DNA of 63,714 nucleotides, from the IMG/VR virus record IMGVR_UViG_3300038393_002131. The stretch is one strand, 5' to 3'. Positions within the stretch are counted from its first letter, which is position 1, and each line of letters begins with the position of its first letter. Under the pieces are notes generated by a model. That model made no database searches. It saw only the letters and a program-made list of their open reading frames with translations, and was not told the origin of the DNA. A program made the position numbers and the translations under genes. Of the stretch, positions 26,901-43,310 are shown piece after piece. The DNA is from a virus (Duplodnaviria > Heunggongvirae > Uroviricota > Caudoviricetes).

Positions 26901-29900
26901 CCGGGGCCGCCTCGGGGGCGTCCTCGACGATCTCGGCCGTCTCCGGGTCCACCTTGACGGTGTCGGTCGGCTTCGGGGCCTGCTCGCCCCGCTCACGCGG
27001 CGTCGAGGACGAACCCGACGACGAGGTGCGGCCGCGGGCCTTCTTCACCCGGGCGGCGACCCGCTCGCGGATCTCCTTCCGGTCAGCGTCCGGCTCGAGC
27101 GTGGCGATCGTGTCGGTGACCGAGTCGATGAGCCGCTCGTCGGAGGAGTCGGGCAGGTCGGCCAGGGCGTTGTCGATCTGCTCGTCGGCGCGGGCGTGCC
27201 ACGCCCGGCCCTTCGTCTTGCGCTGGTAGAACTCCGCGGCCTTCGCGATCTGCTCGATGGGCGGCAGCATGTCGGCCGGCAGCGGCATCTCCGGGTCGAC
27301 GATGTCGAGCGCGGAAGCCGCGTCGTCCTTCGCCGCACCGACGATGTCGTGGTACTCCTGCTCGAGCGCCTTGAGCTCGTCCTCGTCGAGGCCCTGCGAC
27401 TGGCCCGCGATGACACGGTCGACGACCTCGGCGAGCTCCTTGGCCTTGCGCAGGTCGTCCGTCTTGCCGAACTCCTTGCCGGCGGCCTCGCGGGCCTGCT
27501 CGGCGCCGCGCTCGGCCTTCTCGACGTCGGTCTTGGCGCGCTGGTACGAGTCCTCGAACCCGCGGCCCTGACGCTCAAGCGACGCCACCGGCATCGCCAG
27601 CTGGGCGTCCTTGGACTTGGGGTCCAGGTCGCGCAGCTCGATCGGGGTGGCGCGGCCCTCAAGGCCCTCGAACGCGACCTCGAACCAGTTGCGGCTCGAG
27701 CCCTCCATAACGTCGGAGTGCACGTAGCGGGAGCGCAGCTTCATGCCGCCGAGCTCGCCGAAGTCGGCCCACTCGGTGCTCTGGTTGCGGTTCGGCAGGT
27801 TGGCGTACTGCTCGGCGAGGACGCGCTTGATCTCGGCGTCGGCCGCCTGGCGGGCCTTCTCGGTGTTCTTGTCGAACACCTTGCCGCGGACGGTCATCTT
27901 GAACTTGTCGCCCGTGGTGTCCTGCCACTGCTCGGCGGCCTTCTGCAGCTTGGGCAGGTACGGCTTGAGCACGTCGGCCTTGTGCTGCAGACGCGCCACC
28001 GCGGCCGAGGCCTCGGCGCGGTTCGTGTTGTGCGTCTTGAGGTCGGCGGTCAGGTCGAGCAGGCGCGCGTCCGCGGTCGCCTTGCGCATCAGCCACGGGT
28101 TGCCCGCAGCCAGCGCGACGATCTCGGAGGCCTGCAGCTCGTCGGAGGACACGTCCTCCATCTGGCGGACGTTGCGGTCGCCCTTCATGGCCGCGTTGAT
28201 GAACTTCTGCTTGCGGGCGACGCCCTGCCACATGTACGAGTCGAAGGTGCCCTCGGTGACGTACTGGAAGATGTCGACCGCGGCGTTCTGGTTGCCCTGA
28301 CGCAGAGCGCGACCGTCGCGCTGCTGCAGGTCGGCCGGCCGCCACGGCACGTCGAGGTGGTGCAGGGCCACGACGCGGTCCTGCACGTTGGTGCCCATGC
28401 CCATCTTCGACGTGGAGCCGACGAGCACGGCGATGCGGCCCTCGCGGGCGTCTTGGAACAACTGGGCCTTCTGGACGTCGTCCTTGGCCTCGTGGATGAA
28501 CCGGATCTGGTCGGCCGGCACACCCTTGGCGATCAGGTCGTCCTTGAGCTGCTGGTAGGGCGACCACTTCGGCGTCGCGTCGAACGGCACGACCTCGAGA
28601 CGGCGCCCGCCGCCCTCCTCGGGGAACAGCGCGTCGAGGACGTCGGCGACCATCTCGGCCTTGGCGGTGTCCTCGTCCCACTCCGAGGTGTCGACCTCGA
28701 GGTTGTCGGCGATCTGCTCGATGTCCGAGGCCTTCATGTTGCCCATGAGGCGGTTGGCCTCGGCGCGGGCCGCGGTGCGGTCCATCGTCCCGGCCTCGAC
28801 GGCGTCGTGGATCGGGGCCAGACGCTCGGCGAGCTTGTTGACCTTCGGCGACGTCGGGTCCTTCGGCGTGCCGAGGTCCATGAACACGAGCTGCAGCGCA
28901 CCGGCCTGCTCGTGCAGGTCGTCGGAGTCGGCCCGCTTGTAGAGGTTGCCGCGGTTGCGCTGGTAGGTGGAGGTGATCTGGTTGGCGGCCGCCTGCAGCT
29001 TCGGCGACACCTCACCCTCGGGCCCACCGACGAGACGCATGTCCAGGGCGGCCTTCCGGCCGTCGCCGGAGATCTTGAGGAGGTTGTCGTCCTTCGGGTC
29101 GACACCGCCGCCCTCGACGGCCTTGGCGCGCTCGGCGAGGTCGGCGATGTAGTCGGCCTGCGCGTCGGACCGCTTGACCATGATCGTCTTGGGCTTGCCG
29201 CCGCGCAGCTCGGGGATCGGGAGGTCGGCGTCCATCTTGACGTCGGCGAACTCGCGGAACATGCCGAGCATCTCGGGCAGGTTGGAGAACTTCGCGAACC
29301 GGGCCTTGGCCTTGAAGTTGGCGCCGGTGATGTCGACCTCGGGGGTGGCGACGACCTCACCGAAGGTCGCGGCCCACCGGTCGAACGAGTTCGTGCCGGT
29401 CTTTTCGAGCAGGTCGGGGCGCATGAACCGGGTCATCGTGTAGGCCTCGGTCATGCTGTTCGACAGCGGCGTCGCCGTCGCGAACGTGCCGACCGGGCGG
29501 GTGACGCCCTTCTTCTCGCGCAGGAAGTCCAGCTTCATGTGGATGTCCTGCGCGCGGTTCGCGCCGGTGATGTTGGCGCCCGGGATGCGCGAGGGCGTCA
29601 TGAGGTTCTTGAACAGGTGGGCCTCGTCGACGAACAGGTAGTCGATGCCGGTCTGCTCGAACGTGACGCCGCCCTTCTCGCGGGCCGTCTCGATCTTGTC
29701 GCGGTACTTCTGCTCCATGTTGAGCAGGGAGGACTCGAGGCGCTTCACGCCGCGGCCGTCCTCACCGTGGAGGGCCTTGCGCGCCTCGAGCTCGGCCCGC
29801 TTCTCGGCGAGCTCCTTCTCGAGGTACCGCTCCATCTGGTCCGGGCCGACGGGCATCAGCTCGAACGCGGAGTGGGTGAACACGACCGCGTCCCAATCGC

Positions 29901-32900
29901 CGGAGGCGGCCTTGGCGGCGAACGCCTCACGCTTGCGGCGGGTGTCGGCCGCGCCCGAGCCGGCCAGGTCGCTCTTGCGGGCGACGAGGACCTTGGCGTT
30001 CGGGAACGCCTTGATGAACTCGCGGGTGTACTGCTCGAGCATGTGGTTGGGCACGACGTGCGCCGGCTTGTTGGCGATGCCGAGCTGGCGCAGCTTCATC
30101 GACGAGGCCTGCATGACGAGCGTCTTGCCGAAGCCCACGTCGTGCGCGAGCAGCGTCGTCGGCTGGGTGATCGCGCGGGAGACGCCGGCGTGCTGGTGCG
30201 GCCGCAGCGAGAACGCGTCGGACAGGCCGTGCACGGTGACCCGGCGGGCGCTGTAGTCGGCGTCCGCGAGGAAGTTGAACATCTCGTTGTAGCGGCCGAC
30301 GAGCCGGTCGCGGCGGTCCTCGTCGGACCACACCCACTGCCGGAACTCCTCGAGCATCTGCTTGGCCTTGGTGAGGGCCTCGCGGGTCTTGGCGTGGTCG
30401 GTGTAGGTCTTGCCGTCGACGGTGTACGTGACCTTGATCGGCGACTGCTGGATCACCGACTGGAAGATCTTGCCGGCGCCCCACAGGACCTTCGGGCGGC
30501 CTTCCTTCGTCGTGTCGGTGTCGGACAGCACCGACCACTTCTCGGCCGCGAACGAGGTCACGGGGACCTCGACGTCCCAGCCGGACCCGCCGCCGGGGTT
30601 GAGCACGAGCGCGCCGGGCGCCTCGAACTTCTCCCGGGCGAACGCCGTCAGGTCCTCCTCGCTCATCCATGCGGCACCGGGGCGCACGTCGATCTCGTGG
30701 GACTGAATGTCGGCCGGGACGCGCGCCTCGAGGAAGGTGACGTTCTTCTCGAACGACGGGTCGTGCTCAGCCAGGGCGCGCGCGACCTTGAGCTTGCCGC
30801 GGACGTCGCCGGCGCCGTACGCCGTGACGTCGACGTACGTGTCGAGCTCCGGGTCCTTGAACACGTGCCCGTCGACGGCCTTGAGCGCGGCGTCCTCGTC
30901 GGGCAGGCCCATGAGGGCGGCGATCTTGGAGAGGTTGACCTCGCCGGACTGGTCCTGCGACAGCATGACGGCGTCGACCGGGTCGTCGGTGCGGGTGATG
31001 ACCTTGGCCGGGGAGACGGTGCGGCCCTCGAAGATCGCGGCCTTCTTCGCGATGCCCGTCTCGGGGTTGTAGTCCTCGAGCGCGCCGGTGGTGATGAAGC
31101 CCATGCGGTCGGACTTCCACACGGCCGGGATGCCCGCGATGGCGCGGCGCTTGGCGTTCGGGTCGTCGGCCTTCGGCTCGGAGAACCGGACGCGGTTGAT
31201 CGGGCCGAACGTGCCGACGTAGTGGTCGTACTCGTCGTTGAGCTGCTTGCGGAGCTCGGCCATGAGCGGGGTGTCCTCGTCGTGGGACACCTCCTCCTCC
31301 ATGAGCGCGGTGCGCAGGTCGCGCAGGCGCATCAGGCCGAGGACCTCCTCGGTGCGGGACTTCGGCACCGTCAGCTCGACCGGCTTGCCGTTCTCGAGGA
31401 TGGTGAAGCCCTCGCCGTTGGGCGACAGGTCGATGTAGCCCTCGTCCTTGCCGTCGATGCTCTTGCGGCGGCGGATCGCGTCGTCGACGGTCGTTGGCAG
31501 GCCCTCGCGGGGCGTCATGCCGAGGCGCTGCTTGTGGGCGTCGGCGGCGATGTTGCGCAGGGCGTTCCGCAGCTGGCCGGGCAGCGCGTCGAGGTCCTTG
31601 TTGACGACGGTCAGCGCGTCGTCGGCGCCGTACATCGACTTGCCGACCTCGATGTCACCGAGGACGTTCTCGGGGTGGCGGGCGAAGTACTCGTTGACCG
31701 TCCAGTCCTTGCCGGACTTGGTCTTGATCTTCTTGCGGCCGACGAACTTCTCGCCGCGGGGACGCTCACCGTCGAGGCGGCGACGGAACATCAGAATGTC
31801 CGTGACGACGTCGGTGCCGGCCGAGGCCTTGTGGGCGCCGCCGGGCAGGCGGACCGCGCCGAGGAAGTCACCGAGCGACGCCATCTCGTCGCGGCCCTTC
31901 TTCGACGTCTTGTCCATCGAGCCGGACGAGGTCATCACCATGACGAGGCCGCCCGGGCGGACCGCGCGCATCGCCTTCGTGATGAAGTGGTCGTGCATGT
32001 TGAGCCCGGCCTTGTTGCCGCCGGTCGGGTCGTGCAGGACGGCCTCGTGGAACGGCACGTTGCCGATGACGGCGTCCAGGCTGTTCGGCTTGAGGTCGAC
32101 GTTCTGGAACCCGGCCGCCTCGATGTGGGCGTTCGGGTGGAGGAACTGCGACATGGCGGCGGTCGTCGGGTCGAGCTCGACACCGACCATCCGGGCACCC
32201 TTGGGCGCCATGCCGATGAAGTTGCCGATGCCGGAGCCCGGCTCGAGCACCGTGCCGTCCTCGAACCCGAGGTCCTGCATCGCCTCCCACATCGACTGCG
32301 TCATGTGGGCGGCCGTGTAGTGGGCGTTCAGCGTCGTGCGCGACGCGGCCGCGGCCTCCTTCTGGTCAGGCAGCAGCTCGGCGAGCTCGGCGCGCTCCTT
32401 GGCGAACTCCGGCTTGTCCTCGTCGAACATCTCCGGCAGCGCACCCCACGAACCCCACTTCGCGAGGACCTTGCGCTCGTCCTCGGTCGCGGGCCGGTTC
32501 TCGGCCTGCAGGGTGCGCAGCACGCGCAGCGCGTCGAGGTTGGCGCGGGCACGGGCCTTCTTCCCGCTGGGGGAGAGGTCCTCCTGGCTCGTGGCCTGCC
32601 ACGGGCCAGGGACGTCCGCGCCGGCGTCCTTGAACGACGGCGCGGCACCGTTGGGAGCCTCGGGGGTGGGCTCCGCAGCGGCCGCTACGGCGTCGGCGTC
32701 TCCGCGGGCGGCGTCGTCGGCTCGTCCACCGGCAGCTCGTTCTCCCGGGCGTCCGGCTCCGCTGGCAGGAACACCTCCTGCTCGAGCACCTCGGCCTCCG
32801 CCGTCCTGAACGCCCACAGCATCAGGTCGCGGCGCTCCTGCTCGGTCGTCGGCTGCGGCTTCTCCGCGGCCGCCAGCTGCTCCGCGCGGCGCTGCACCAG

Positions 32901-35646
32901 CGTCTCCACCCTCGCTCCGAGCTCCTTGAAGAACGTCTCCGGGTCGGCCAGCTGGGCGGTCGCCTCGGGACGGAACGTCGTCCAGTGCTTCCGGGCGGTC
33001 TGCGCGTACGTCTGCGCTGTCACGGGTCTCTCCTGCGGTGTCGGGGGTGCTCGGGGCGCTGGCCGGGCTCTCCTTGAGCGTACCGGCGGCGGGGGTCTTG
33101 TCGCTCTCGCCGCGCGGCGCCGGGGCGCTGGGGGCGTCGGCCTTCGGCTTCTCGATGAGGTACTGCGGGTCGATGTCGAACTCGGCGCCGTTGTCGGTGT
33201 TGCGGACGGCGACCTTGCCGTTGCGGCGCGTGTCGACGACCTCCCACTCGCCCTCCGCGCCGCCACCGGGGCGGTTGGGGTCGACGGTGAAGGTCTTGCC
33301 CTTGCTGGCGGCCATGAAGGCGCGCTGCGGGGCCTGGTTGGGGTCGAGGCCGTCGGCTGCGGGCGTGGCCTCCATCGACTGCTTCTCGGTGAGTCGACGG
33401 TTCTCGCGGTTGACGAAGTCGACCGGGTCCTCACCCTTGCGGGCGGCCTGCAGCACGTCCCATTCGTCGACGTCCTTGGGCTCCCAGCCGGCGTCGTCGA
33501 GGGCCTTGTCGACCTTCGCGCGGTAGTCGCGGTACTCGGGGCTGTCGGTGGGCTCGGCCCAGCCGTTCTCCTCGCGCGGGTCGGCGAACGGGTCGCGGGC
33601 CGAGGAGGGGGTGTCGGCCTTCGGCGCGGCCGCGGTCGAGCGGTCGGGCGTGCCAGCGTTGACGTCGGCGGCCTTCGGGTCGGAGCCCTTGGGCTGCTCG
33701 TCGCCACCCTTGGCGGCGGCCTCGACCTCGCGGGCGGCCTTGCGCTTGGCGAGCCGGTTGCTGTCGGAGGCGGCGTCGTAGCGGGCAACCGCGTCACGGA
33801 CCTCGGGACGCTCGTCGCCGCGGTGCTTGTCGACGGTGGCGTTGTTGCGGGTGAGCTCGTCGGCGCTGCTCTGCTCGGCGGCGGCCGCGGACGCGTCCTT
33901 CTCCTTGCGGAACTCGATCGGGCGACTGTCGCGCTCGGGGGCGTCGCCCGGCTTCGCGGCCTCGGCGGGCTGCGCCGGGCGCTTCGTGTCGGCGGGCTTC
34001 GCCGCGGCCGCGGGACGGGCGGGCTCGGCCGGCTTCGCGGCGGGGGAGTCGGCCTTGCGGGCCTCGTCGAGCTTCTCCGTGAGGTCGTCGACCTTGGCGG
34101 TGAGCTCGTCGATCTTCTCCTCGACGGGCTTGGGGGCCTCCGGGGTGTCGACCTTCGCGGCGGCCTGCTGCGGCTCGTCGGCGACGGCGGCGATGTCCTT
34201 GCGGGCGTCGTCGCGGGCGGCCTTGGACTTGGCCTTGAGGTCGGCGGCGGACGCCGAGGAGGCGAGGCGCTCGAGGTGCGAGCCGATGACCTCGTTGTGC
34301 GCGACGCGGGCCTTGTCGGGGTTGCGCTTGTCGGCAGCGCGGACCTTCGCCACGCGGTTCTTGATGATCTCGGCGGCCTTGGCGCGGTCGCCGCCGACGG
34401 CGTCAAGGGTCTGCTTCCACAGCGCCTCAGCGGTGGCCTCGGCGTGGCGGGTCGAGCCGCCCGCGTTGGACTTGCCGGCGCGGGCCGCCTTGCGGTCGGC
34501 GTCGATCTTCTTCGCCTGGGCGACGAACTCCTCACGGGAGCGGGCCCGGATCTCCTTGCCGTGGGCCTGGCCGATCCAGCCCTTGCCGCCGGCGGTGTCC
34601 AGCGACGACGTCGTCGAGGCGACGAGGCGCCCGTCGGCGTCGTAGAGCTCCTGCTGCGGCAGGGCGTCCTTGTCGGCCTCGTCCTTCACCGTGGCGGTCG
34701 TCCAGCCGTCGCCGGCGTCAGCGTGGCCCTTGGGGAGCTTGCCCTTCTTGGCACCCTTGACGGGGCTCGGGTCGTAGGCGGCGTCGAGCTCCTTGGCCTT
34801 GGCGATCGCGGTCGGCTTGTCGACGAGGGTCTTGGAGCCGTTGTGGCCGGCGACGGGCATGCCGTCGTCGGCGCGGAACACCTGCCACTTGCCGTCGACG
34901 CGGGCGACGATGTGCTCGCCCTCGGGGGACAGCTGCGCGGACTCGAGCTTGTCGGCGAGGGCGGCCCGGTCCGGGTTCACCGGGGCGTCGGGGTCCTCGG
35001 GCTTGCGGTCCTCGGCCTTCCAGTGGGCCTTGACCTCGTCGATGGACTCGAACTGGTCGCGGACGATGGTGGGCTGCTTGCGGCCGCGCTGGTCGGGCGC
35101 GTCGGCCTCGACGTCGTCCTTGCCGTCGTCCGCGAAGTCGGGCTCGGGCCCGTCCTTGAACCCGTTGGGGGTGGTGTCGAAGTCGGGCTCGTCGTGGTCG
35201 TCGTCGGCGTTCAGGCCGTCGCCGCGGCCCGGGTGCTCGTCGCGCAGCCGGTCCTCGGCCATGACCAGCGCGCGCGCCTTGCGGGTGCCGTCGTCCTTGA
35301 TGGGGCGGCCACCGTTGGGGCGCTTGACCATCGTGAGCCGTGCGGCGGGCTGCACGTTGCGCGTGCCGTCGGCCATGCGCAGCTCGACCCGACCGTTGCC
35401 GAGGGAGCGGACGACGCGGCCGCGGCCGCCGCCCCACACCTGGGCGATGCCGCCCGTCTCGATGAACCGTCCGCGCGAGTCACGCGGGTGCAGCGCGGAG
35501 TTCCACCGGCGCCCTCGCGTGTCGATGATGATGCCGTGGCCGCCGACGTGGGCGGAACGTCGAGCGGAGCGCATGAGGGACTTGCCCTCGAACGCCTCCT
35601 TGAACGCGGCATGCAGTGCGGACAGGGTCGAGTAAGGCTTCGGCAT
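17905..35646 (-). CDS. Giant (5913 aa) DarB-like protein: N6-MTase + SNF2 helicase + UvrD-like SF1 helicase + SH3-like repeats
   Basis: Single open frame with GC3 bias. MTase EPGSGIGNF and GNVPF; SNF2 AHDVGFGKT, VDEAH, GMGTNVQ, QRDGRALRQGN; SF1 AKAGAGKT, VDEAQD, SWRYG, STAHKAKGLEW. N-term WNSALHPRDSRGRF. Confidence 0.85.
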   Translation of the reverse strand: MPKPYSTLSALHAAFKEAFEGKSLMRSARRSAHVGGHGIIIDTRGRRWNSALHPRDSRGRFIETGGIAQVWGGGRGRVVRSLGNGRVELRMADGTRNVQPAARLTMVKRPNGGRPIKDDGTRKARALVMAEDRLRDEHPGRGDGLNADDDHDEPDFDTTPNGFKDGPEPDFADDGKDDVEADAPDQRGRKQPTIVRDQFESIDEVKAHWKAEDRKPEDPDAPVNPDRAALADKLESAQLSPEGEHIVARVDGKWQVFRADDGMPVAGHNGSKTLVDKPTAIAKAKELDAAYDPSPVKGAKKGKLPKGHADAGDGWTTATVKDEADKDALPQQELYDADGRLVASTTSSLDTAGGKGWIGQAHGKEIRARSREEFVAQAKKIDADRKAARAGKSNAGGSTRHAEATAEALWKQTLDAVGGDRAKAAEIIKNRVAKVRAADKRNPDKARVAHNEVIGSHLERLASSASAADLKAKSKAARDDARKDIAAVADEPQQAAAKVDTPEAPKPVEEKIDELTAKVDDLTEKLDEARKADSPAAKPAEPARPAAAAKPADTKRPAQPAEAAKPGDAPERDSRPIEFRKEKDASAAAAEQSSADELTRNNATVDKHRGDERPEVRDAVARYDAASDSNRLAKRKAAREVEAAAKGGDEQPKGSDPKAADVNAGTPDRSTAAAPKADTPSSARDPFADPREENGWAEPTDSPEYRDYRAKVDKALDDAGWEPKDVDEWDVLQAARKGEDPVDFVNRENRRLTEKQSMEATPAADGLDPNQAPQRAFMAASKGKTFTVDPNRPGGGAEGEWEVVDTRRNGKVAVRNTDNGAEFDIDPQYLIEKPKADAPSAPAPRGESDKTPAAGTLKESPASAPSTPDTAGETRDSADVRADRPEALDDVPSRGDRPAGRPGDVLQGARSEGGDAGAAPRGAAGGRGEAAADDRAGAPRPDAVGVQDGGGRGARAGGVPASGAGRPGERAAGGRADDAARGDADAVAAAAEPTPEAPNGAAPSFKDAGADVPGPWQATSQEDLSPSGKKARARANLDALRVLRTLQAENRPATEDERKVLAKWGSWGALPEMFDEDKPEFAKERAELAELLPDQKEAAAASRTTLNAHYTAAHMTQSMWEAMQDLGFEDGTVLEPGSGIGNFIGMAPKGARMVGVELDPTTAAMSQFLHPNAHIEAAGFQNVDLKPNSLDAVIGNVPFHEAVLHDPTGGNKAGLNMHDHFITKAMRAVRPGGLVMVMTSSGSMDKTSKKGRDEMASLGDFLGAVRLPGGAHKASAGTDVVTDILMFRRRLDGERPRGEKFVGRKKIKTKSGKDWTVNEYFARHPENVLGDIEVGKSMYGADDALTVVNKDLDALPGQLRNALRNIAADAHKQRLGMTPREGLPTTVDDAIRRRKSIDGKDEGYIDLSPNGEGFTILENGKPVELTVPKSRTEEVLGLMRLRDLRTALMEEEVSHDEDTPLMAELRKQLNDEYDHYVGTFGPINRVRFSEPKADDPNAKRRAIAGIPAVWKSDRMGFITTGALEDYNPETGIAKKAAIFEGRTVSPAKVITRTDDPVDAVMLSQDQSGEVNLSKIAALMGLPDEDAALKAVDGHVFKDPELDTYVDVTAYGAGDVRGKLKVARALAEHDPSFEKNVTFLEARVPADIQSHEIDVRPGAAWMSEEDLTAFAREKFEAPGALVLNPGGGSGWDVEVPVTSFAAEKWSVLSDTDTTKEGRPKVLWGAGKIFQSVIQQSPIKVTYTVDGKTYTDHAKTREALTKAKQMLEEFRQWVWSDEDRRDRLVGRYNEMFNFLADADYSARRVTVHGLSDAFSLRPHQHAGVSRAITQPTTLLAHDVGFGKTLVMQASSMKLRQLGIANKPAHVVPNHMLEQYTREFIKAFPNAKVLVARKSDLAGSGAADTRRKREAFAAKAASGDWDAVVFTHSAFELMPVGPDQMERYLEKELAEKRAELEARKALHGEDGRGVKRLESSLLNMEQKYRDKIETAREKGGVTFEQTGIDYLFVDEAHLFKNLMTPSRIPGANITGANRAQDIHMKLDFLREKKGVTRPVGTFATATPLSNSMTEAYTMTRFMRPDLLEKTGTNSFDRWAATFGEVVATPEVDITGANFKAKARFAKFSNLPEMLGMFREFADVKMDADLPIPELRGGKPKTIMVKRSDAQADYIADLAERAKAVEGGGVDPKDDNLLKISGDGRKAALDMRLVGGPEGEVSPKLQAAANQITSTYQRNRGNLYKRADSDDLHEQAGALQLVFMDLGTPKDPTSPKVNKLAERLAPIHDAVEAGTMDRTAARAEANRLMGNMKASDIEQIADNLEVDTSEWDEDTAKAEMVADVLDALFPEEGGGRRLEVVPFDATPKWSPYQQLKDDLIAKGVPADQIRFIHEAKDDVQKAQLFQDAREGRIAVLVGSTSKMGMGTNVQDRVVALHHLDVPWRPADLQQRDGRALRQGNQNAAVDIFQYVTEGTFDSYMWQGVARKQKFINAAMKGDRNVRQMEDVSSDELQASEIVALAAGNPWLMRKATADARLLDLTADLKTHNTNRAEASAAVARLQHKADVLKPYLPKLQKAAEQWQDTTGDKFKMTVRGKVFDKNTEKARQAADAEIKRVLAEQYANLPNRNQSTEWADFGELGGMKLRSRYVHSDVMEGSSRNWFEVAFEGLEGRATPIELRDLDPKSKDAQLAMPVASLERQGRGFEDSYQRAKTDVEKAERGAEQAREAAGKEFGKTDDLRKAKELAEVVDRVIAGQSQGLDEDELKALEQEYHDIVGAAKDDAASALDIVDPEMPLPADMLPPIEQIAKAAEFYQRKTKGRAWHARADEQIDNALADLPDSSDERLIDSVTDTIATLEPDADRKEIRERVAARVKKARGRTSSSGSSSTPRERGEQAPKPTDTVKVDPETAEIVEDAPEAAPARPEAPSAPEAPSAAAEAPSARPAEPKADEPTLVVDPATAEVVDEKPAAPAAPEAPAAEERPLVDAGAYDSDAMAGQTMLGGDDLVPGGEDFMLTQEAPTPKAPTAPAAPVREADDLFDTTGDAPLVDKTPTTTRPAMSIKPGDKVKGGDGQLHTVTEVDPRRSDVLITSVDADGKSSTDSYSPDEHLDVAVPDAPAASTPDAPSRPTPARPYHPDNQPADMETVLTPVTEVQEGDILPGKGKVVGKGTTSRGQVFLVLDNGEGTIGPRSFNPDATVDVWKPKAGNAPEAPKAPDARGPYHPDARPEHMESVPTAANRVQLGDVLPGNGKVTDKGMTTNGRVQLTFDDGKGGTRTQTFNPNTTVRVWKDKIAPVAAGDGGRDGGDRTPDAPATPDEPELPGPAGMVTTEERPYNTPIHDIAADFDMSTLSDEELAELRDHRFADNGFWTGRAYKRINDEITRREQASTPEAPTSDDLPDPTDERVPDPVEVPTPAAAPAAEAAAKAKSPEAQRVRGAIAGEKHAPTEQQGDIYEAAAVDGKNVIVEAKAGAGKTSTLEGLARRIAELHPDAKILYAAFNKSVQLEAEGRMPSNVETRTGHSLAWNFVGRKITDKFGKSGQLSNAKDVARHLGITDDLGELTPEQQAKAIQKAIGQYVLSADDNIMGKHFPQSVRSQLNGAQEARLVAQARRAWEDIKDPKGRLRVSQDDFRKMWALARPDLSKAGSGNRRAASILFVDEAQDTPPVLAKVFADQKMQKVIVGDSDQAIYGFAGATDYLSKAEGDVRLPLDKSWRYGPAIADAGNRFLQLLGSKERAVGGGKEGKIVEGMKDADGVLVRTNGGLLAAIEEELGRGRTVGVPKGTKTELESLIESAGYLRGERSKPWKGMHPDLEPYNSWAEVMQEAAKGDDPKISMIARLVDRYGIDGMEDLVSQVTEPADDALAGVQIERDDHRMSIGGNTWALNEAVKKATGGEGLSSLGFRFRKNESGKGGTWEVAGDRDAQERPLARLRELLGGTAEKPDVTISTAHKAKGLEWDRVRIGGDFPQPKIDEDDGSVTFPDPEELRLDYVAVTRAAKELDPGSLAWVFEHTDENGGTAGSKPKAAAPEAPKAPETVKVDPKTAEIVDEPSAPSAPEAPAAPEAPAADVTPEAPQVAKGITDAGQIVDAGEGWKARIADDGMSATLIDPDGNEVGEPIQAYDANEWSKDDSVRRYWFGVGHRGGYTLKDALAEHRDSELNRRAVADAPAHQGEVVKQSMPKGTPDLTTTQGVPKFTRDPEMGTVLSDGTIGFAIGKGQHGMQRYYTLQPDGTWDSRGASGVDRASLMSDWLNARAKRDALERFPLGEDLPEHQWIERAGARAYRDGDATLVMWPHRLIGTTAKEDSFKSESSGDWWNGTILNRLAEPGMEPTDINTYSLRGWEPGGAWPQSHRSGIEAARYVEKMGPQMRAEAEAWNKYGDKLSRLNYRGGLADDRKHSSELEAELATLEDASRILADAPDTTLAQRVEERLRTVRGELSERDGSHLTEISDEELAQRIAAETKRDNEQHGGRGNWIGLRDAEAERERRDYGGTYGPRQTGEEIPTQEPVTTPEQAAAVAPEPEDVPEVTVDDVAPAAPAGPDFTAMSNDEIMAAAMDPANMEDPDVYRALEAEMDRREAAGLFDEQQEAEVGDILDAAAEPDTTSDGWGTGRPTRDPLPQADADVLDQLRRDNEAILNRFFDPKNTSGKMSGVDAISGLPPKMQKRLMEGNGVPANTIAKYVPEEATLAIWGMTPDEMRKHGMKHYSIPGAIKRGDKLAESTPLAAEHDPKGLRHHSTDDLHDDELTELEGLVGRHTNDEAWLEALNAEMGRRAHLSDEDRKREDADRRKRRDESATGEQDGESEKDRADDENRNDRDERDDRDRVEDMTDRELDDAAERDDEEGDKARGEKHRRDQLSEDERKKEDDDREERRRRRRNRRNRRRRNRGGHNRPHLGLPHLHMPDMPGQGQGSSDDGRKGRPAGAPDAPNADVPNGHLPAGGVDTRKPEPTIADKADVEKALEQADEARPVDAEHLTPASGKDGADMTPEEIDAENAAIDKAFGDPIPGAVAESVNVDDARPEHIALAVWDRAQGYAAKGRAAGAPVEVTPAEDGKVGISVRDPFSAGGLYVNVVPGAREGKPRVSAVEYGPTGTARKVPVREIPQKMRGYGESWERKRALDAARDEQGGVAEAPAAGGAPATATPDAPAGVPAPGNVSDGPAPTGGVADAPSAPTVDAPAPASTPINDVMTNRPLQVVDVPEGATRVPVAAEEVKKGDIVLHPETGEPVRVVSVTTNPNFIRFQYAGADRGFPVTGEDMPRDTILTRVDAPEAVDAPQADVTPDVTPNVSEPTPSAPSAPNTPASADSAPSTPGTTTTPEVAPAARPQAITADSFMGQDLPNGLSPEQVRALLTPGPDGNVDEVAIQTADGQLYIGTPVANPDGTFRGLELTPDLVDEFDAADVRSVDPIGMAEPVDMTPTPDPVMPTEPNAETPIPDGLSTPDVVDDGLPSGTPMPRNELVQPADEVPTPAQAPATPDAADAPEAPEVDGEPRLNGSGSLDVTPSAKPAGARVGGDRSAGDLAREAAKAKHTNADGSKKKVTKTVDGDKVDVPLEETEAAGMQAAYATPGSLQIGDYAHVDGIDGDGNPASAAGFLTNDPMPVLVRKPGEDGPGEDMMAVTVSDEMDGLGAQHTVYVPLDAMVALAPRPDMHEVPDAGWQLDKNRLDVRNNRMPNRIPADRDGEFGLFPGSLVEDNSGRRGRVVLTRGRDVTVVWDDNDRATTHSGRVLRVVDDGAARPDGWSRDGRREKRAGRGVTRPNPSKQQDATNREVRAEVDSLTEDLLKEVDALVAKVQAKNLDAAQAEKELRKMAEAILARSARRRAETARRLAAERSYRPGLIAQIVTLLGQIAMAVVRSVLSFVFGVRQGFLDGWRGEASADRRSELRNRVRAAADAGVPMRKLRDLMDLDEDLAA
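23660..25340 (-). other. Domain within giant ORF: UvrD/Rep-like SF1 helicase
   Basis: PTEQQ Q-motif, EAKAGAGKT, FVDEAQD, VIVGDSDQAIYGF, SWRYG, STAHKAKGLEWDRV, LDYVAVTRA. Boundaries approximate. Confidence 0.85.
28180..30230 (-). other. Domain within giant ORF: DarB/SNF2-type SF2 helicase
   Basis: LRPHQ, LAHDVGFGKT, YLFVDEAHLFKN, ATATPLSNS, GSTSKMGMGTNVQ, DVPWRPADLQQRDGR. Boundaries approximate. Confidence 0.9.
31660..32580 (-). other. Domain within giant ORF: N6-adenine DNA methyltransferase (DarB-type)
   Basis: ANLDALRVL, WGSWGA, TLNAHYT, VLEPGSGIGNF, VGVELDP, IGNVPF, HDHF, RLPGGAH. Boundaries approximate. Confidence 0.9.
32685..33023 (-). CDS. TnpV-like small protein nested out of frame inside the giant ORF (112 aa)
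   Basis: CAGGAGAGACCC SD before GTG33023, TAG at 32685-32687. Almost all codons are GC3 in this frame. Sequence TYAQTARKHWTTFRPEATAQLADPETFF..LG..AEAEVLEQEVFLP. Confidence 0.7.
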   Translation of the reverse strand: MTAQTYAQTARKHWTTFRPEATAQLADPETFFKELGARVETLVQRRAEQLAAAEKPQPTTEQERRDLMLWAFRTAEAEVLEQEVFLPAEPDARENELPVDEPTTPPAETPTP

Positions 35647-35745: not shown

Positions 35746-37965
35746 TCAACGCGCGACCTCGAGATCTGTCACAGCGCCCCGGGCGATGCCCGCGGCGACG
35801 GTCCCGGCGCGGAACGCGTACAGCGACTTGACCTCTGCGACAACGTCGCTCATGGACGTCGTCGCGGAGGCGGCGGTGTCGATCGTGGTGGCGACGTCGA
35901 CGAGGAACTCGCGCATCTGCTCGGCGGCGCCAGCGGCCGCGATGAACGCCGCGGAGTCGCTGCCCGCGTCGGCGAGGAGCGGCTGCACGGTGTTGACCGT
36001 CTCGAGCTCCCACCGGTCGACGTCGACGACCTTGCTGACGTCGATGGCGTCGTCACCGCCGCGGGTGTCCGACGGGCCGTCCGGGGTCCAGAACGGGGTG
36101 CCCTTGCGTGTCCGGGGCGACTCGAGGCGGGCGGTGATGATGCCGACCTGCCGCGACAGGGCGGCCGCCATCGCAGCGGCGACGCTCATCTCGGCGACCT
36201 CGGCCGACTTGCCCTCGGTGCGGGCCCGGCGCAGCGCGTCGGCGCCGTCGCCCTCGGTGTAGCCGCCCATGTCGGCGTCGGCCTCGGCGACGGCTGCGGC
36301 GCCGTCACCGGGGGTGCTGCCCTCACCGGAGCGGACCTCCGCGACAGCGGCCGCGCCGTCACCGGTGTCGCCCTCGACGTCGTCGACTGCGTCGATCTCC
36401 TCCTGCGTGGGCGGACCCCACGCCTCAGCGTCCGCAGCGTCACCCTCCGGGGCGTCGTCGAGCGCAGCCGGGACCTCACCGGCGGCGATCGCGGCCTCGA
36501 GTCGGGCGACCGCGTCAGCGCCGTCACCCTCGGCGCCAGGCTCGGCCGGTGCGCCACCGTCGGGGCCGCCGTCCGGGCCGGCCGGGGGCTCGCCGTCGGG
36601 GCCCGGGGGCATGCCGCCACCGTCGGGGCCAGCCTCGCCGCCCATGCCGAGCCCGAGGGCCTGCTCGTCGCCGGGCTGGCCGGGGATCGGCGCCTTGGAC
36701 GGGTTCGTCCACAGCGCGCGCGTCTGCGGGACGTTGAGCATGGGCAGGTTGGCGAGGTTGCGGTACTCGTCGATCGAGCGGAGGCCCTGGTTGACCTCGG
36801 TGCGGGCCTCCTCGCGGTCGCGGCGCTTCGGCAGCTGCAGGACCTCGATGTGGGAGGTGTCGAGGTAGGGCTCCCAGCCGCCGTACGGCAGGTCCTCCTC
36901 GAACGCCTCGGCGACGAGCTCCATGTAGGTGGGGAGCACCTGCGTCCAGTAGTTGTAGAGCTCGGCGTCGGCATTCTCGAACGAGCGGCCGGACGCGTTG
37001 CCGAGCATCGACTCGCCGATGCCGAACGCGGCGAGGATCTCGACCTTGGCGTTGGTGGAGGCCTCGCCGTAGCTCATGTCGCGGGGCTTGGTGGCCGTGT
37101 CGACGTAGTTGAGCCCGCCGGGGCCGGTGCCGATGACGGTCATGGCGCCGGCGTGATGCGCACCCGGGAGGAACTTCCGCTCGATGCGCTCCATCTCCTG
37201 ATCGGACAGGGAGTCGGTGTCGACGCCGAGGACGCCGGAGGGGCGCGCGTCGCGCTTGATGAACGACGAGTTGTAGATGCGGGTCAGGAAGTCGAGCTCG
37301 ATCGACAGGCCCGCGGCCTCGAGCGGCGTCGTGCCGGAGTAGGCGTCGGTCGGGTGCGGCTGGCGGATCCATCTGATGTGCTGCGGCTGGATCTCGCGGA
37401 CGGTGCCGTCGCGGCGGGTGAACTCGAACCACTTGATGTAGTCGTAGCCGTTGTCGGCCGGGATCGGGCGGGTGCGCTGCGGGTCGAGCAGGTCCAGGCG
37501 CACGATGTTGCCGGCGCGGGACTTGGTCACCTCGACGAACACGCCACGCTTGGAGAGGAGCAGCTGGGCGACGAGCCGCTTCTTGAACAGCTTGGCCTTC
37601 TCGAGCTGGTTGGCCTTGACGTTCAGCACCCGGTACAGCGGGTGGTCCTCGAGCGTCTCCTCCCGCTCGGTGCCGCGGTCACGGCCAGCCTTGAACTTGA
37701 GGCGGGACAGGTCGCCGGAGATGAGCTCGACGCACCGGTAGACCCAGATCGCGCGCTCGTACCCCTCGCTGATGACGGTGTCCATGTCCCACGCGTCGGC
37801 GCGGCCCTCTGTGCCATAGAGGCCGTTGCCGATGCGGGTCGTCGACAGGTACGCCGCGCCAGACACCGGTCCGCCGATGCTCAGCGACTTCTCCTCGACG
37901 CCGTCCGTGACGTCGAGCGCGCCCGTGCTGTAGCCGCCGCGCAGGGCAGGCAGGAACTTCCTCAC
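35746..37965 (-). CDS. HK97-family portal protein with long acidic C-terminal extension
   Basis: WVYRCVELISGDLSRL, HPLYRVLN..N, QLLLSKRGVF, IRQPHPTDAYSGTTPLEAA, ILAAFGIGESMLG, RSIDEYRNLANLP. GTG37965 overlaps upstream stop. Confidence 0.9.
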   Translation of the reverse strand: MRKFLPALRGGYSTGALDVTDGVEEKSLSIGGPVSGAAYLSTTRIGNGLYGTEGRADAWDMDTVISEGYERAIWVYRCVELISGDLSRLKFKAGRDRGTEREETLEDHPLYRVLNVKANQLEKAKLFKKRLVAQLLLSKRGVFVEVTKSRAGNIVRLDLLDPQRTRPIPADNGYDYIKWFEFTRRDGTVREIQPQHIRWIRQPHPTDAYSGTTPLEAAGLSIELDFLTRIYNSSFIKRDARPSGVLGVDTDSLSDQEMERIERKFLPGAHHAGAMTVIGTGPGGLNYVDTATKPRDMSYGEASTNAKVEILAAFGIGESMLGNASGRSFENADAELYNYWTQVLPTYMELVAEAFEEDLPYGGWEPYLDTSHIEVLQLPKRRDREEARTEVNQGLRSIDEYRNLANLPMLNVPQTRALWTNPSKAPIPGQPGDEQALGLGMGGEAGPDGGGMPPGPDGEPPAGPDGGPDGGAPAEPGAEGDGADAVARLEAAIAAGEVPAALDDAPEGDAADAEAWGPPTQEEIDAVDDVEGDTGDGAAAVAEVRSGEGSTPGDGAAAVAEADADMGGYTEGDGADALRRARTEGKSAEVAEMSVAAAMAAALSRQVGIITARLESPRTRKGTPFWTPDGPSDTRGGDDAIDVSKVVDVDRWELETVNTVQPLLADAGSDSAAFIAAAGAAEQMREFLVDVATTIDTAASATTSMSDVVAEVKSLYAFRAGTVAAGIARGAVTDLEVAR

Positions 37966-38174
37966 GACTGCTCCTCCTCGACGGTCAGCAGGTAGCCGCC
38001 GCAGATGAGGCCCGCGCCGAGCAGCGCGCACCCGAGGCGCCAGTCGGTCGCGAACGCAGGCACGATCAGGGCGGCGGCTCCAAGGAGGAGCGCGAGGAGG
38101 CCGAGCAGCTCGCGCAGTTGCGCGGCGCGGGTCGGGGCCTGTTCGGGCTGGGGCTCAGGCGGCATGGTGGTCAC
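37962..38174 (-). CDS. Small two-TM membrane protein upstream of portal
   Basis: LLGLLALLLGAAALIV..LGCALLGAGLICGGYLL. Confidence 0.75.
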   Translation of the reverse strand: MTTMPPEPQPEQAPTRAAQLRELLGLLALLLGAAALIVPAFATDWRLGCALLGAGLICGGYLLTVEEEQS

Positions 38175-40786: not shown

Positions 40787-40793
40787 GGCAGCG

Positions 40794-41144
40794 TCACGCC
40801 CCGTAGCACTTCGGGCACGGCGGGACGCCGACGTCGGTGACGACGGTGAGCTCACCGGTGCGGCCGCACGCGGTCATCTCCTCGCCGGCGCGACGGTGGG
40901 CGAGCAGCGCGCCGTTGACCTGCCACTGCAGCGCCGGGTGTGTGGGGGCCTGCTCGGCGGCGCGCAGGATCGTGTCGACGCGGCCGCGGAGGGAGTCGCC
41001 GATGCGGGCCTCGCGGGCGAGGTCGATGTGCTCGTCGAGGATCCGGTCGAGCGCGGCGTCGAGCCGGGCGTCCCGGGCGGCGACCTGCTCGGGGGTGTCG
41101 GGGGAGGCCAGCATCGTGCGGACCTCGGCGGGGGAGAGGCTCAC
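40794..41144 (-). CDS. Hypothetical protein with C-terminal Cys/His cluster
   Basis: H...TACG...CPKC; GTGA overlap. Confidence 0.65.
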   Translation of the reverse strand: MSLSPAEVRTMLASPDTPEQVAARDARLDAALDRILDEHIDLAREARIGDSLRGRVDTILRAAEQAPTHPALQWQVNGALLAHRRAGEEMTACGRTGELTVVTDVGVPPCPKCYGA

Positions 41145-42285: not shown

Positions 42286-42404
42286 ATTGCGGATAACAGA
42301 GTTTTACTCGCAGGACTTGACACTAGCTATTGCGTGTCGCGCGGGGTTTGTCCCCTCGAATCGCTACTTTTGAATTGCGGATAATAAGTTCGCACCGGTT
42401 TATC
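42286..42404. promoter_or_regulatory. Candidate tyrosine-recombinase (dif/res-like) site
   Basis: TGCGGATAA-7 bp-TTACTCGCA imperfect inverted repeat (42288-42312); ATTGCGGATAA repeated at 42286 and 42374; locally AT-rich. Confidence 0.5.
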
Positions 42405-42419
42405 AAACGAGGGGGAGAC

Positions 42420-43310
42420 GTGGGTGCACGACCGGAGCCGGCCGAGCAGGCCGAGTTCTACGCCCGGTGGCTGTGGCGCGGCGGCGTCCTGGCCGACGCA
42501 TCGAAGCGGGCCTACGAGTCGCGGGTGCGCGAGTTCGTCGCATGGGTGACCGGCGAGGGCGAGCAGTACGCCGACGCCTTCACCGACGAGTACGTCCGCG
42601 ACTACGCGGTGCGCGACTACCGCCGGAAGCTGCTCACCGTCGACAAGAAGGCCCCGGCGACGGTGTCGCAGACGATGAGCGCGCTCGGCTCGTTCTACGA
42701 GTGGCTCGAGCTGGGCAAGCCGCAGGGCGTCCGGGTCGACGTGCCGGAGCCCGAGCGGACCGGCCTCACCGAGGAGGACCTGCGCAAGCTGCTCCGGGCG
42801 TGCCAGCGCCGCGGGCTGCGGGACTACGCGATCGCGTCGACGCTGTACTACGCCGGGCCGCGGGTCGGCGAGCTCGTGCCGCTCGACGTCGACGACGTCG
42901 TGATGACGGAGCGCACCGGCCAGCTGCACATCAGGTACGGCAAGGGCGGCCAGTCCCGCAAGGTGCCCATCTCCAAGGACCTGCGCCCGGTCCTGCGGGC
43001 GTGGCTCGCGGAGCGGCGCACGCTGCCCGGCGCGGACGGCCCGGCGCTCTTCCTGGCGCGCACCGGCGACCGGCTCTCGGCCCGGTCCGTCGAGCATGTG
43101 CTGCAGCAGGCCGGGGCCAGCGTCGGGGTGAAGGTGAGCCCGCACGTGCTGCGGCACACCTTCGGTCGGCAGAACGCCGACAACGGCACGGACCTTGAGA
43201 GTCTCCGTCGGCTCTTGGGGCACCGGCGCATCGACACCACGGCTGGCTACACCAAGCCGCGCTGGGAGAACCTTGAGGACGCCGTCGACCGGATCGGGGT
43301 GGAGATCTGA
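42420..43310 (+). CDS. XerC/D-like tyrosine recombinase (296 aa, no arm-binding domain)
   Basis: R (GPRVGEL), K (GKGGQSR), HVLRH, LGH and Y (TAGYT) all present. Confidence 0.92.
   Translation: MGARPEPAEQAEFYARWLWRGGVLADASKRAYESRVREFVAWVTGEGEQYADAFTDEYVRDYAVRDYRRKLLTVDKKAPATVSQTMSALGSFYEWLELGKPQGVRVDVPEPERTGLTEEDLRKLLRACQRRGLRDYAIASTLYYAGPRVGELVPLDVDDVVMTERTGQLHIRYGKGGQSRKVPISKDLRPVLRAWLAERRTLPGADGPALFLARTGDRLSARSVEHVLQQAGASVGVKVSPHVLRHTFGRQNADNGTDLESLRRLLGHRRIDTTAGYTKPRWENLEDAVDRIGVEI

What the first reader, a model, noticed from the sequence alone, without database searches (positions are those of the whole stretch)
32685..33023. Complete small gene nested on the same strand, out of frame, inside the megaprotein
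Seen: a 112-codon ORF with a strong AGGAG SD, GTG start and TAG stop, and near-total GC3 bias. Over the same bases the giant frame reads like shadow sequence (RGDRPAGRPGDVLQGARSEGGDAG...) yet stays open. It ends about 100 nt before the MTase domain begins. Known: it resembles the small TnpV-like genes found next to DarB-like helicases (recognised by eye). Inference: a dual-coding region, probably created when an upstream gene read through the TnpV-like gene into DarB. It may supply a stoichiometric partner or chaperone, or allow a frameshift-truncated product.
Basis: partly seen in the sequence, partly recalled or inferred. Interest (0 to 1): 0.8.

Follow-up and report, generated by a model that had tools for sequence, protein, structure and literature searches.

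The report
Small gene embedded in giant gene
A complete, conserved 112-residue TnpV-like gene sits out of frame inside the 5,913-codon anti-restriction-type gene of a soil Streptomyces-like phage-plasmid, and comparison with 85 related loci shows that selection keeps both reading frames usable, so this is a real and widely mis-annotated gene-within-a-gene.

Summary
On the minus strand, AGGAG (33034-33030), GTG (33023) and TAG (32687-32685) bound a 112-aa ORF in the +1 frame of a 5,913-codon ORF (35646-17905). GC3 switches to the small frame over exactly these bases, and the giant frame has no stop there.

The small protein is a distant TnpV relative. Its AF2 model has pLDDT 93, and 167 clusters of free-standing small homologues exist.

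This is not a one-off. Of 85 distinct actinobacterial loci with the same MTase-helicase gene, 74 have the small gene embedded in the same +1 relation. The giant frame is open through it in 74 of 78 loci, against 26.8 expected from synonymous shuffles; control segments gave 77 observed against 71.9 expected. In 49 of the 74 there is no start codon between the small gene's stop and the conserved MTase N-terminus. A conserved leader with ATG and SD lies upstream of the small gene.

The giant protein is therefore most likely translated across the small gene as a Gly/Arg/Ala/Pro-rich spacer, while the small gene starts from its own conserved SD and start codon. In this window a roughly 875-aa N-terminal domain replaces the short leader, and the gene lies between the portal and prohead protease genes.

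Translation of both frames is inferred, not shown. The small protein's function is unknown; I think a partner of the giant enzyme is most likely.

The parts
17905..35646 (-). Giant ORF, 5,913 codons: N-terminal extension, spacer, N6-adenine MTase, SNF2-type helicase, UvrD-type helicase
   Evidence: ORF list. GC1/2/3 0.72/0.48/0.95. Pfam ResIII/SNF2/Helicase_C and UvrD/UvrD_C hits. MTase motifs VLEPGSGxGxF and GNVPF in alignment A4.
33024..35646 (-). N-terminal extension of the giant ORF, about 875 aa, giant frame, with normal coding signal. Its first ~115 aa carry an HPRDSRGRFIETGG-type region shared with four other long-extension loci.
   Evidence: GC3 0.96 in the giant frame. Translation. 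blastp to L002, L073, L078 and L032 N-extensions. No Pfam or PHROG hit.
33030..33034 (-). Shine-Dalgarno AGGAG of the embedded gene, 6 nt before the GTG
   Evidence: Sequence. An SD-like motif is found before the homologous start in 53 of 60 relatives.
32685..33023 (-). Embedded TnpV-like gene: GTG start, 112 aa, TAG stop, in the +1 frame of the giant ORF
   Evidence: GC3 0.965. 167 homologous clusters of free-standing small proteins. TnpV hits in 30 of 81 relatives. AF2 pLDDT 93, four helices. Start codon at a fixed alignment position in relatives. Variants fall mostly at the small gene's third codon positions.
32685..33023 (-). The same bases read in the giant frame: a spacer of about 112 aa that is 87% G/R/A/P/D/E and 8% hydrophobic, and probably disordered
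   Evidence: Translation and composition. No stop in this frame.
31639..32601 (-). Conserved N-terminal region (FRPxSQxDLAPxG...ANL...RWSxWG type) plus N6-adenine MTase domain of the giant protein
   Evidence: HMM built from A4 matches WIN 5900-6862, which is window 32601-31639. There is no ATG/GTG/TTG in frame between the small stop and this region; the first is 164 nt downstream, inside the conserved block.
28294..30213 (-). SNF2/ResIII plus Helicase_C (SF2 helicase) region of the giant protein
   Evidence: Pfam hits at residues 825-1464 of the translation of window 32685-17908.
23662..25323 (-). UvrD-type SF1 helicase region of the giant protein
   Evidence: Pfam UvrD-helicase, AAA_19 and UvrD_C hits at residues 2455-3008.
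35749..38031 (-). Phage portal gene directly upstream of the giant ORF
   Evidence: Pfam Phage_portal 9e-43; PHROG portal 2.5e-49.
38984..40855 (-). Large terminase gene
   Evidence: PHROG 2, terminase large subunit, 1.6e-20.
14500..16647 (-). Prohead protease (S78) fused to a 2H phosphoesterase-like domain, downstream of the giant ORF
   Evidence: Pfam Peptidase_S78 and 2_5_RNA_ligase2; PHROG head maturation protease.

Best explanation
The locus is a genuine same-strand gene-within-a-gene.

Ribosomes that start at the giant gene's own start (35646) read an N-terminal domain. They then read straight through the small gene in the -1 frame relative to it. This yields a Gly/Arg/Ala/Pro-rich, probably disordered spacer of about 112 residues. 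They then continue into the MTase-SNF2-UvrD body, giving one 5,913-aa DarB-like polyvalent protein.

Other ribosomes start at the internal AGGAG-GTG (33034/33023) and make the 112-aa helical TnpV-like protein, ending at TAG 32685.

Only the small frame carries structural information here. The giant frame needs only to stay free of stops. This architecture is the normal state of a phylum-wide actinobacterial family, which usually has a short conserved leader of about 45 codons instead of the long domain.

In this window the gene lies between the portal and prohead-protease genes of a phage-plasmid head module. The added N-terminal domain is therefore most likely a capsid-targeting module, and the giant protein a virion-carried, injected anti-restriction enzyme (inferred). 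The TnpV-like protein is most likely an obligate partner or regulator of that enzyme (inferred from linkage only).
For: Shown in the window:
- SD, start and stop of the small ORF, and the GC3 switch to its frame.
- The giant frame has no stop, and no ATG/GTG/TTG between the small stop and the conserved MTase N-terminus.
- No indels in three independent metagenome contigs.

The small gene is a real protein:
- 167 clusters of homologues of 68-280 aa, with the match starting at their residues 1-5 in most rows.
- TnpV hits in 30 of 81 relatives.
- AF2 pLDDT 93.
- Start codon at a fixed position in 54 of 62 anchored relatives, and an SD-like motif in 53 of 60.
- It is free-standing, with a stop/start overlap, in some loci.

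The giant frame is translated across it:
- 74 of 85 distinct loci are embedded in the same +1 relation.
- The giant frame is open through the small gene in 74 of 78 loci against 26.8 expected from synonymous codon shuffles.
- Control segments from the giant's own coding region gave 77 of 303 against 71.9 expected.
- Using one representative per 50%-identity cluster, 22 of 22 are open against 9.1 expected, and 0 of 500,000 simulations reached this.
- Both halves of the small gene are affected: 74 of 78 against 44.8 and against 41.3 expected.
- 49 of 74 embedded loci have no in-frame start after the small stop, and the median gap to the conserved motif is 23 nt.
- A conserved leader of the type MARRR...GQLxFDLWG, with ATG and SD, lies upstream of the small gene in 45-47 of 65 short-leader loci.
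- At least three unrelated kinds of long N-terminal domain are fused upstream in different lineages.
- Divergence at the small gene's third codon positions is lower than at third positions of the non-overlapping giant region in 15 of 16 embedded pairs (ratios 0.24-1.03). It is higher (1.14-2.05) in the 3 un-nested pairs.

Context: terminase, portal, giant gene, then protease.
Against: - There is no direct evidence of translation of either frame. No RNA run holds this DNA, and no proteomics was available.
- For the window alone, an open shadow frame is expected by chance (P = 0.63).
- The 80 comparison loci are the best-scoring of at least 588 hits, so they are a biased sample of the family.
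- Relatedness among loci inflates raw counts. This was partly controlled by the cluster-representative test.
- Leader motifs are absent or different in about 20 short-leader loci.
- The capsid-targeting role of the N-terminal domain rests on gene position only. That domain has no Pfam, PHROG or sequence match outside the giant proteins.
Confidence: 0.8

Rival explanations
1. There are three separate genes (N-terminal protein, TnpV-like protein, MTase-helicase). The giant ORF is an annotation artefact of a GC-rich genome, in which the shadow frame stays open by chance.
For: The giant frame's first codon position over the small gene is 94-98% G+C, so stops are rare. P(open) for the window is 0.63 under synonymous shuffling. 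A gene caller working on a short near-identical contig called the small gene and a downstream gene separately. PGAP annotates separate genes in some relatives.
Against: The upstream part has no stop codon in any of the nine long-extension loci. The downstream part has no in-frame start before its conserved N-terminus in the window or in 49 of 74 embedded loci. Openness is far above chance across the family while controls are calibrated. The PGAP starts in L008 and L010 cut off conserved N-terminal residues.
Confidence: 0.07
2. The small 'gene' is a domain of the giant protein, reached by two programmed frameshifts: +1 into the small frame, then -1 back out at its stop.
For: The coding signal leaves the giant frame and returns to it. 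Linker-like sequence flanks the small ORF in both frames.
Against: An ATG/GTG with an SD is conserved at the first residue, and a stop at the end, in nearly all loci. All 150 listed homologues, of 167 clusters found, are small free-standing proteins of 68-280 aa; none is a giant. If ribosomes left the giant frame there would be no reason for that frame to be kept open, yet it is. No common slippery sequence is visible at either junction, by eye only. The un-nested loci make the two proteins separately.
Confidence: 0.04
3. The small ORF is a relic. It was once a separate TnpV-like gene and now serves only as a spacer in the giant protein, and is no longer translated.
For: The internal start lies inside a translated ORF, where initiation could be inefficient. 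PGAP does not annotate it in five plasmids where the giant CDS covers it.
Against: GC3 (0.965) and amino-acid conservation follow the small frame, not the giant frame. The start, SD and stop are intact in the 74 embedded loci despite 30-40% protein identity among them. Of the four distinct variant positions seen in the small gene in near-identical DNA, three fall at its third codon positions: two are silent and one is Glu to Asp. The fourth is Val to Ala in the low-complexity tail.
Confidence: 0.07

Closest known systems
TnpV (Pfam PF14198; transposon-encoded protein of Tn4451-type elements)
   Same: It is a small (about 90-180 aa) helical protein of mobile elements. 30 of 81 relatives of the window protein hit PF14198 (best E 2e-7), and the nearest named ESM-Atlas clusters are TnpV. 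No function is known for either.
   Different: The window protein itself gets no Pfam hit even at E <= 1. This is an actinobacterial branch with its own motifs (MNxYG..HW..RP..DPExFF..LG, and a C-terminal LPxEPGxExxELP), and it is embedded inside its neighbour gene.
Phage P1 DarB and the MTase-SF2 helicase 'dyad' of polyvalent proteins (Iyer et al. 2017, PMC5512222)
   Same: The giant protein has an N6-adenine MTase followed by an SNF2-type helicase, preceded by a conserved N-terminal region. It is encoded in a head module or on conjugative elements. The paper describes DarB as a virion-head component that protects injected DNA.
   Different: The window protein is much larger, has an extra UvrD-type helicase, and has an unrelated ~875-aa N-terminal domain. 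The paper does not contain the words TnpV, overlapping or frameshift.
ShiLan insertion in actinophage DNA methylase genes with a hidden out-of-frame HNH endonuclease (Arsenault, Gosselin and Gogarten 2025, PMC11855218)
   Same: A complete gene with a GTG start and its own stop lies out of frame on the same strand inside a phage methylase gene. The host frame reads through it without stops as a tolerated loop or spacer.
   Different: ShiLan is a sporadic, homing selfish insertion. Here the embedded gene is a fixed, family-wide partner gene at the 5' end, and the host frame is kept open by measurable selection.
Lambda Rz/Rz1 and Bacillus subtilis comS inside srfAB
   Same: Both are small genes wholly embedded out of frame on the same strand in a larger gene. 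For Rz/Rz1 the two products act together. comS lies inside a giant gene.
   Different: In those cases the embedded gene is the younger, overprinted one, and both frames encode functional sequence. Here the embedded gene carries the codon-usage and conservation signal, and the host frame is a low-complexity spacer.

Membership tests
TnpV (PF14198) | Match to the Pfam TnpV model | tested here: not met
   The window protein gets no family at E <= 0.01 or E <= 1. 30 of 81 homologues do match (best E 2e-7), so the relationship is transitive and distant.
TnpV (PF14198) | Small free-standing protein of mobile elements | tested here: met
   Homologues are 68-280 aa. They lie on actinobacterial plasmids and other mobile-element contexts. 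In the window the gene has its own SD, start and stop.
DarB-like MTase-SF2 helicase polyvalent protein | N6-adenine MTase domain with SAM-binding and (D/N)PPF-type catalytic motifs | tested here: met
   VLEPGSGxGxF and GNVPF are invariant in alignment A4. No Pfam MTase model scored, so this rests on motifs and the alignment.
DarB-like MTase-SF2 helicase polyvalent protein | SF2 (SNF2-type) helicase C-terminal to the MTase | tested here: met
   ResIII 1.6e-5, SNF2-rel_dom 3.5e-5 and Helicase_C 1.3e-5, at residues 825-1464 after the MTase.
DarB-like MTase-SF2 helicase polyvalent protein | Packaged in the virion and injected; protects DNA from restriction | not testable with these tools
   Only gene position (terminase, portal, giant, protease) supports it.
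Embedded same-strand overlapping gene pair (Rz/Rz1 type) | Both frames intact, with one ORF wholly inside the other in a different frame | tested here: met
   The same holds in 74 of 85 related loci.
Embedded same-strand overlapping gene pair (Rz/Rz1 type) | Selection acting on both frames | tested here: met
   Small frame: conservation and GC3. Giant frame: stop avoidance, 74 of 78 against 26.8 expected, with calibrated controls and cluster representatives, and reduced synonymous-site divergence.
Embedded same-strand overlapping gene pair (Rz/Rz1 type) | Both products made | not testable with these tools
   No RNA or proteome data exist for this DNA. Only DNA metagenome runs hold it.
Programmed ribosomal frameshift gene | Conserved slippery site at the frame junction, with no independent start for the downstream frame | tested here: not met
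   The junction sequences of about 78 loci share no slippery heptamer, by eye. The small frame has a conserved ATG/GTG and SD.

The most novel reading that the evidence does not exclude
The embedding may be a conserved expression device of a phylum-wide family of DarB-like polyvalent proteins. The spacer that overlaps the TnpV-like gene would act as a neutral 'socket' between a swappable N-terminal delivery module and the enzyme body. That module would be a short QLxLF-like leader on conjugative elements, a capsid-associated domain in phage-plasmids, or a primase-like domain elsewhere. The overlap would lock the TnpV-like partner to the enzyme genetically and set their ratio through competing initiation on one mRNA. 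If so, TnpV proteins would be dedicated adaptors or regulators of injected anti-restriction enzymes, and hundreds of database entries for these giant genes would have wrong starts or a missing gene.
Probability: 0.3. Interest if true: 0.8.

Novelty: new variant of a known kind. Interest (0 to 1): 0.72.

Why it matters
Long same-strand overlaps that are truly dual-coding are rare and often disputed in bacteria. Here the case does not rest on one open frame. It rests on a calibrated selection test across dozens of diverged loci, on missing start codons, and on a conserved upstream leader.

It gives three practical things:
- A clean natural example in which an older, structured gene is read through as a disordered spacer of a giant protein.
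- A correction to how these giant anti-restriction-type genes and their TnpV-like neighbours are annotated. In the RefSeq records I looked at, either the small gene is dropped or the giant gene's start is placed too far downstream.
- A first functional lead for TnpV, a widespread mobile-element protein with no known role.

It also makes a testable prediction about how phage-plasmids and conjugative elements attach different delivery modules to the same enzyme.

Tried and rejected
- The plus-strand 6,703-aa ORF (17884-37995) is the antisense shadow of the real minus-strand gene, with GC1 0.95.
- Pfam and PHROGs on the window's small protein and on the N-terminal extension found nothing.
- A PDB sequence-profile search and a Foldseek PDB search with the small-protein model found nothing significant.
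- The search for homologous proteins found only a 98% identical metagenome copy of the small protein and nothing for the N-terminal extension among proteins of 481-1532 aa.
- No whole genome is held for the window.
- There was no DNA match in the plasmid (megablast) or phage (blastn) collections, and no tblastn match of the small protein in phages.
- No RNA holder is listed for this DNA.
- Complex prediction of the small protein with the first 520 residues of the MTase region gave no verdict.
- Literature searches for TnpV with helicase or methyltransferase, and for nested or overlapping genes in this context, found no description of this arrangement.
- Frameshifting at the small gene's stop was considered and dropped. 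The last codons before the stop differ between loci and do not allow re-pairing (by eye).
- My first GC3 helper read the wrong codon position. Those GC3 values are void and were recomputed.
Full report
**What is in the window.**

The feature lies on the minus strand. The 18 bases before the GTG at 33023 contain AGGAG (33034-33030). The ORF runs 112 sense codons to the TAG at 32687-32685. Its GC content by codon position is 0.73/0.50/0.965, the normal pattern of a real gene in this 71% G+C DNA.

The surrounding giant ORF is also on the minus strand: 35646-17905, 5,913 codons, GC1/2/3 0.72/0.48/0.95. The even longer plus-strand ORF (17884-37995) is its antisense shadow, with GC1 0.95.

A sliding frame plot shows the GC3 signal in the giant frame down to about 33050. 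It then moves to the small ORF's frame across 33023-32685, and is back in the giant frame from about 32650. The small ORF is +1 relative to the giant frame.

Over the small gene the giant frame reads a peptide that is 87% G/R/A/P/D/E and 8% hydrophobic, without a stop.

Three contigs from other soil and rhizosphere metagenomes span 32300-33400 with no indel. A 99.7% identical contig is also on record. The frames are therefore not an assembly error.

**The small gene is a real protein of the TnpV kind.**

- A full HMMER search of 1.84 billion representatives found 167 clusters at E <= 0.001. All listed hits are 68-280 aa, and the match starts at their first few residues in most rows.
- The window protein gets no Pfam hit. 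However, 30 of 81 of these relatives hit PF14198 TnpV, best E 2e-7. The nearest named ESM-Atlas clusters are 'TnpV protein family'.
- With this alignment, AlphaFold2 gives a four-helix model at mean pLDDT 93.
- No solved structure matches by sequence or fold.
- Four distinct variant positions in the small gene are seen in near-identical DNA. Three are at the small gene's third codon positions: two silent and one Glu to Asp. The fourth changes Val to Ala in the low-complexity C-terminal tail.

**The giant gene cannot be split into ordinary separate genes.**

- The upstream 875-codon part has normal coding signal (GC3 0.96) and no stop.
- The downstream part starts with a conserved block (FRPxSQxDLAPxG...ANL...RWSxWG) followed by the MTase motifs VLEPGSGxGxF and GNVPF.
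- In the window there is no ATG, GTG or TTG in the giant frame between the small gene's stop and this block. The first lies 164 nt downstream, inside the block.

**Relatives.**

tblastn found the small protein on 11 actinobacterial plasmids.

- In five of them it lies in the +1 frame inside a giant annotated CDS, and it is not itself annotated.
- In five it is annotated as a separate gene directly upstream of a giant UvrD/SNF2 gene.
- In the eleventh, Dermacoccus (L011), it is a separate gene with no intact giant gene directly downstream.

A scan of species-representative genomes with the MTase N-terminus gave 80 more loci, the best of at least 588. HMM searches placed the small gene directly upstream of the MTase in almost all of them. 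After removing duplicates there are 85 distinct loci.

- In 74, the small gene is +1 to the giant frame and that frame is open through the whole small gene.
- The other 11 are un-nested:
  - four have a TGATG or TAATG stop/start overlap;
  - four have the small gene in the same frame as the giant gene, which follows the small gene's stop;
  - three have other or damaged arrangements.

**Is the open frame more than chance?**

For each small gene I permuted synonymous codons among positions of the same amino acid. I then asked how often the giant frame stays free of stops.

| Test | Observed open | Expected open |
|---|---|---|
| Small genes, whole length | 74 of 78 | 26.8 |
| Control segments of equal length from the giants' own coding regions | 77 of 303 | 71.9 |
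| One representative per single-linkage 50%-identity cluster | 22 of 22 | 9.1 |
| First half of the small gene | 74 of 78 | 44.8 |
| Second half of the small gene | 74 of 78 | 41.3 |

- The controls show that the null model is calibrated.
- For the cluster representatives, 0 of 500,000 simulations reached the observed value.
- The four loci that are not open have 4-9 stops and their own ATG at the junction.
- Because both halves are affected, translation in the giant frame must begin at or before the small gene's start.

Divergence at the small gene's third codon positions points the same way. In 15 of 16 embedded pairs it is lower than at third positions of the non-overlapping giant region (ratios 0.24-1.03). 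In the three un-nested pairs it is higher, at 1.14-2.05. The pairs are not independent, so this is supporting evidence only.

**Where the giant gene starts in relatives.**

In 49 of 74 embedded loci there is no in-frame start between the small stop and the conserved block. The median gap is 23 nt and often only 5-14 nt.

The giant frame instead opens a median of 45 codons upstream of the small gene, usually at an ATG with an SD. The peptide encoded there is conserved across genera, of the type M-A-R-R-R...G-Q-L-x-[FL]-D-L-W-G, in 45-47 of 65 short-leader loci.

Nine loci, including the window, have long N-terminal extensions of 420-1,050 codons instead. These are of at least three unrelated kinds:

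- An HPRDxxGRFxETGG-type domain in the window, L002, L073, L078 and L032.
- A second domain in L001, L005 and L006, which also occurs in the middle of the L002, L073 and L078 extensions.
- An unrelated extension in L003 that looks primase-like by eye; this was not tested.

On a FastTree of the MTase region (midpoint-rooted, support not examined), short-leader embedded loci fill most of the tree. Long extensions arise at four places. Un-nested loci form two clades and one singleton, and one of those clades is the window's nearest neighbour.

Embedding with a short leader is therefore most simply the older state. Whether the window kept it or re-made it by read-through cannot be told.

**The small gene's own start.**

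In 54 of 62 anchored relatives an ATG or GTG lies exactly three codons before the conserved Tyr/Phe of MNxYG. The relatives that my pattern failed to anchor show the same M/V/L-N-x-aromatic-G start by eye. An SD-like motif precedes the start in 53 of 60. This argues for independent initiation and against entry by frameshifting.

**Context and likely role.**

The window's gene order on the minus strand is as follows:

- Lsr2-like gene
- large terminase (40855-38984)
- portal (38031-35749)
- giant gene
- a 219-aa ORF
- prohead protease fused to a 2H phosphoesterase-like domain (16647-14500)

A tyrosine recombinase gene lies at 42330-43307 on the plus strand. A related plasmid (L002) also has a portal gene directly upstream.

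The literature describes P1 DarB as a virion-head MTase-helicase that protects injected DNA. It describes an MTase-SF2 helicase dyad, with a conserved N-terminal domain, as a hallmark of polyvalent proteins of phages and conjugative elements (PMC5512222). That paper does not mention TnpV or overlapping genes.

I therefore infer that the window's giant protein is a virion-carried, injected enzyme. I also infer that its extra N-terminal domain is a head-targeting module. Neither inference is shown.

The TnpV-like protein's near-constant linkage suggests a dedicated partner or regulator. The single complex prediction returned no verdict and is not evidence either way.

**Comparison with what is known.**

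Wholly embedded out-of-frame genes are a known kind. Lambda Rz/Rz1 and comS in srfAB are examples from my own knowledge. The closest published parallel I found is the out-of-frame HNH endonuclease hidden in the ShiLan insertion of actinophage methylase genes (PMC11855218).

This case differs in three ways:

- The embedded gene is a fixed, family-wide gene that carries the codon and conservation signal.
- The host frame is only a spacer.
- The arrangement is conserved across a phylum-wide family with measurable selection on both frames.

I found no paper describing it.

**Limits.**

- There are no expression or protein data.
- The locus sample is biased to the best-scoring hits.
- Slippery sites were judged by eye.
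- The tree has no support values.
- The function of the small protein is unknown.

Noticed in passing
window 17884-37995 (+): A 6,703-codon open frame on the plus strand is longer than the real gene. It is its antisense shadow (GC1 0.95, GC3 0.72), and an ORF-length-based caller could pick the wrong strand.
   Followed up: yes
L015, L018, L024, L031, L059, L069, L082, L092 and others, about 70-190 nt upstream of the small gene: The conserved leader of the giant protein (MARRR...GQLxFDLWG, and in some loci QLSLF) resembles the bacterial beta-clamp-binding motif QL[SD]LF, as I remember it. This was not tested. It could equally be a transfer signal.
   Followed up: no
L008 (NZ_CP109145.1) and L010 (NC_008697.1, pNOCA01): RefSeq places the giant gene's start at an internal GTG, 74 and 176 nt after the small gene's stop. 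This cuts off conserved N-terminal residues. In L010 a GTG with an SD 154 nt upstream of the small gene opens a leader with the QLxLW motif.
   Followed up: partly
L001, L002, L003, L005, L006 (plasmid records): The embedded small gene is not annotated in any of the five records where the giant CDS covers it.
   Followed up: yes
window 35646-35300 (-); L002, L073, L078, L032: The N-terminal extension begins with a shared region of about 70-250 aa that contains HPRDxxGRFxETGG and a Gly-rich stretch. It is found here only at the N-terminus of giant proteins. It has no Pfam or PHROG match, and no homologue among proteins of 481-1532 aa.
   Followed up: partly
small proteins of A3 (window residues about 85-100): A conserved C-terminal linear motif (F)LPxEPGxExxELP follows the helical core in many small proteins. 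It looks like a short docking motif.
   Followed up: no
L046; L075: In L046 the small gene is split between two frames, which suggests a frameshift or pseudogene. L075 is a close relative of L002, L073 and L078, but its small gene is in a different frame relation and the giant frame is interrupted. Both may be decayed copies.
   Followed up: no
L088, L093: Two MAG contigs labelled Deltaproteobacteria and Myxococcota carry the same actinobacterial-type embedded locus. This suggests mis-binning or transfer.
   Followed up: no
L004, L007, L009, L017 (Streptomyces plasmids and a Streptomyces genome contig): The un-nested relatives closest to the window on the MTase tree belong to giant genes. The three with annotation (L004, L007, L009) span 26-30 kb, about 8,800-10,000 codons. 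Their small gene is longer (162-165 aa), is rich in T-ending codons, and ends in a TGATG or TAATG overlap with the giant gene's ATG.
   Followed up: partly
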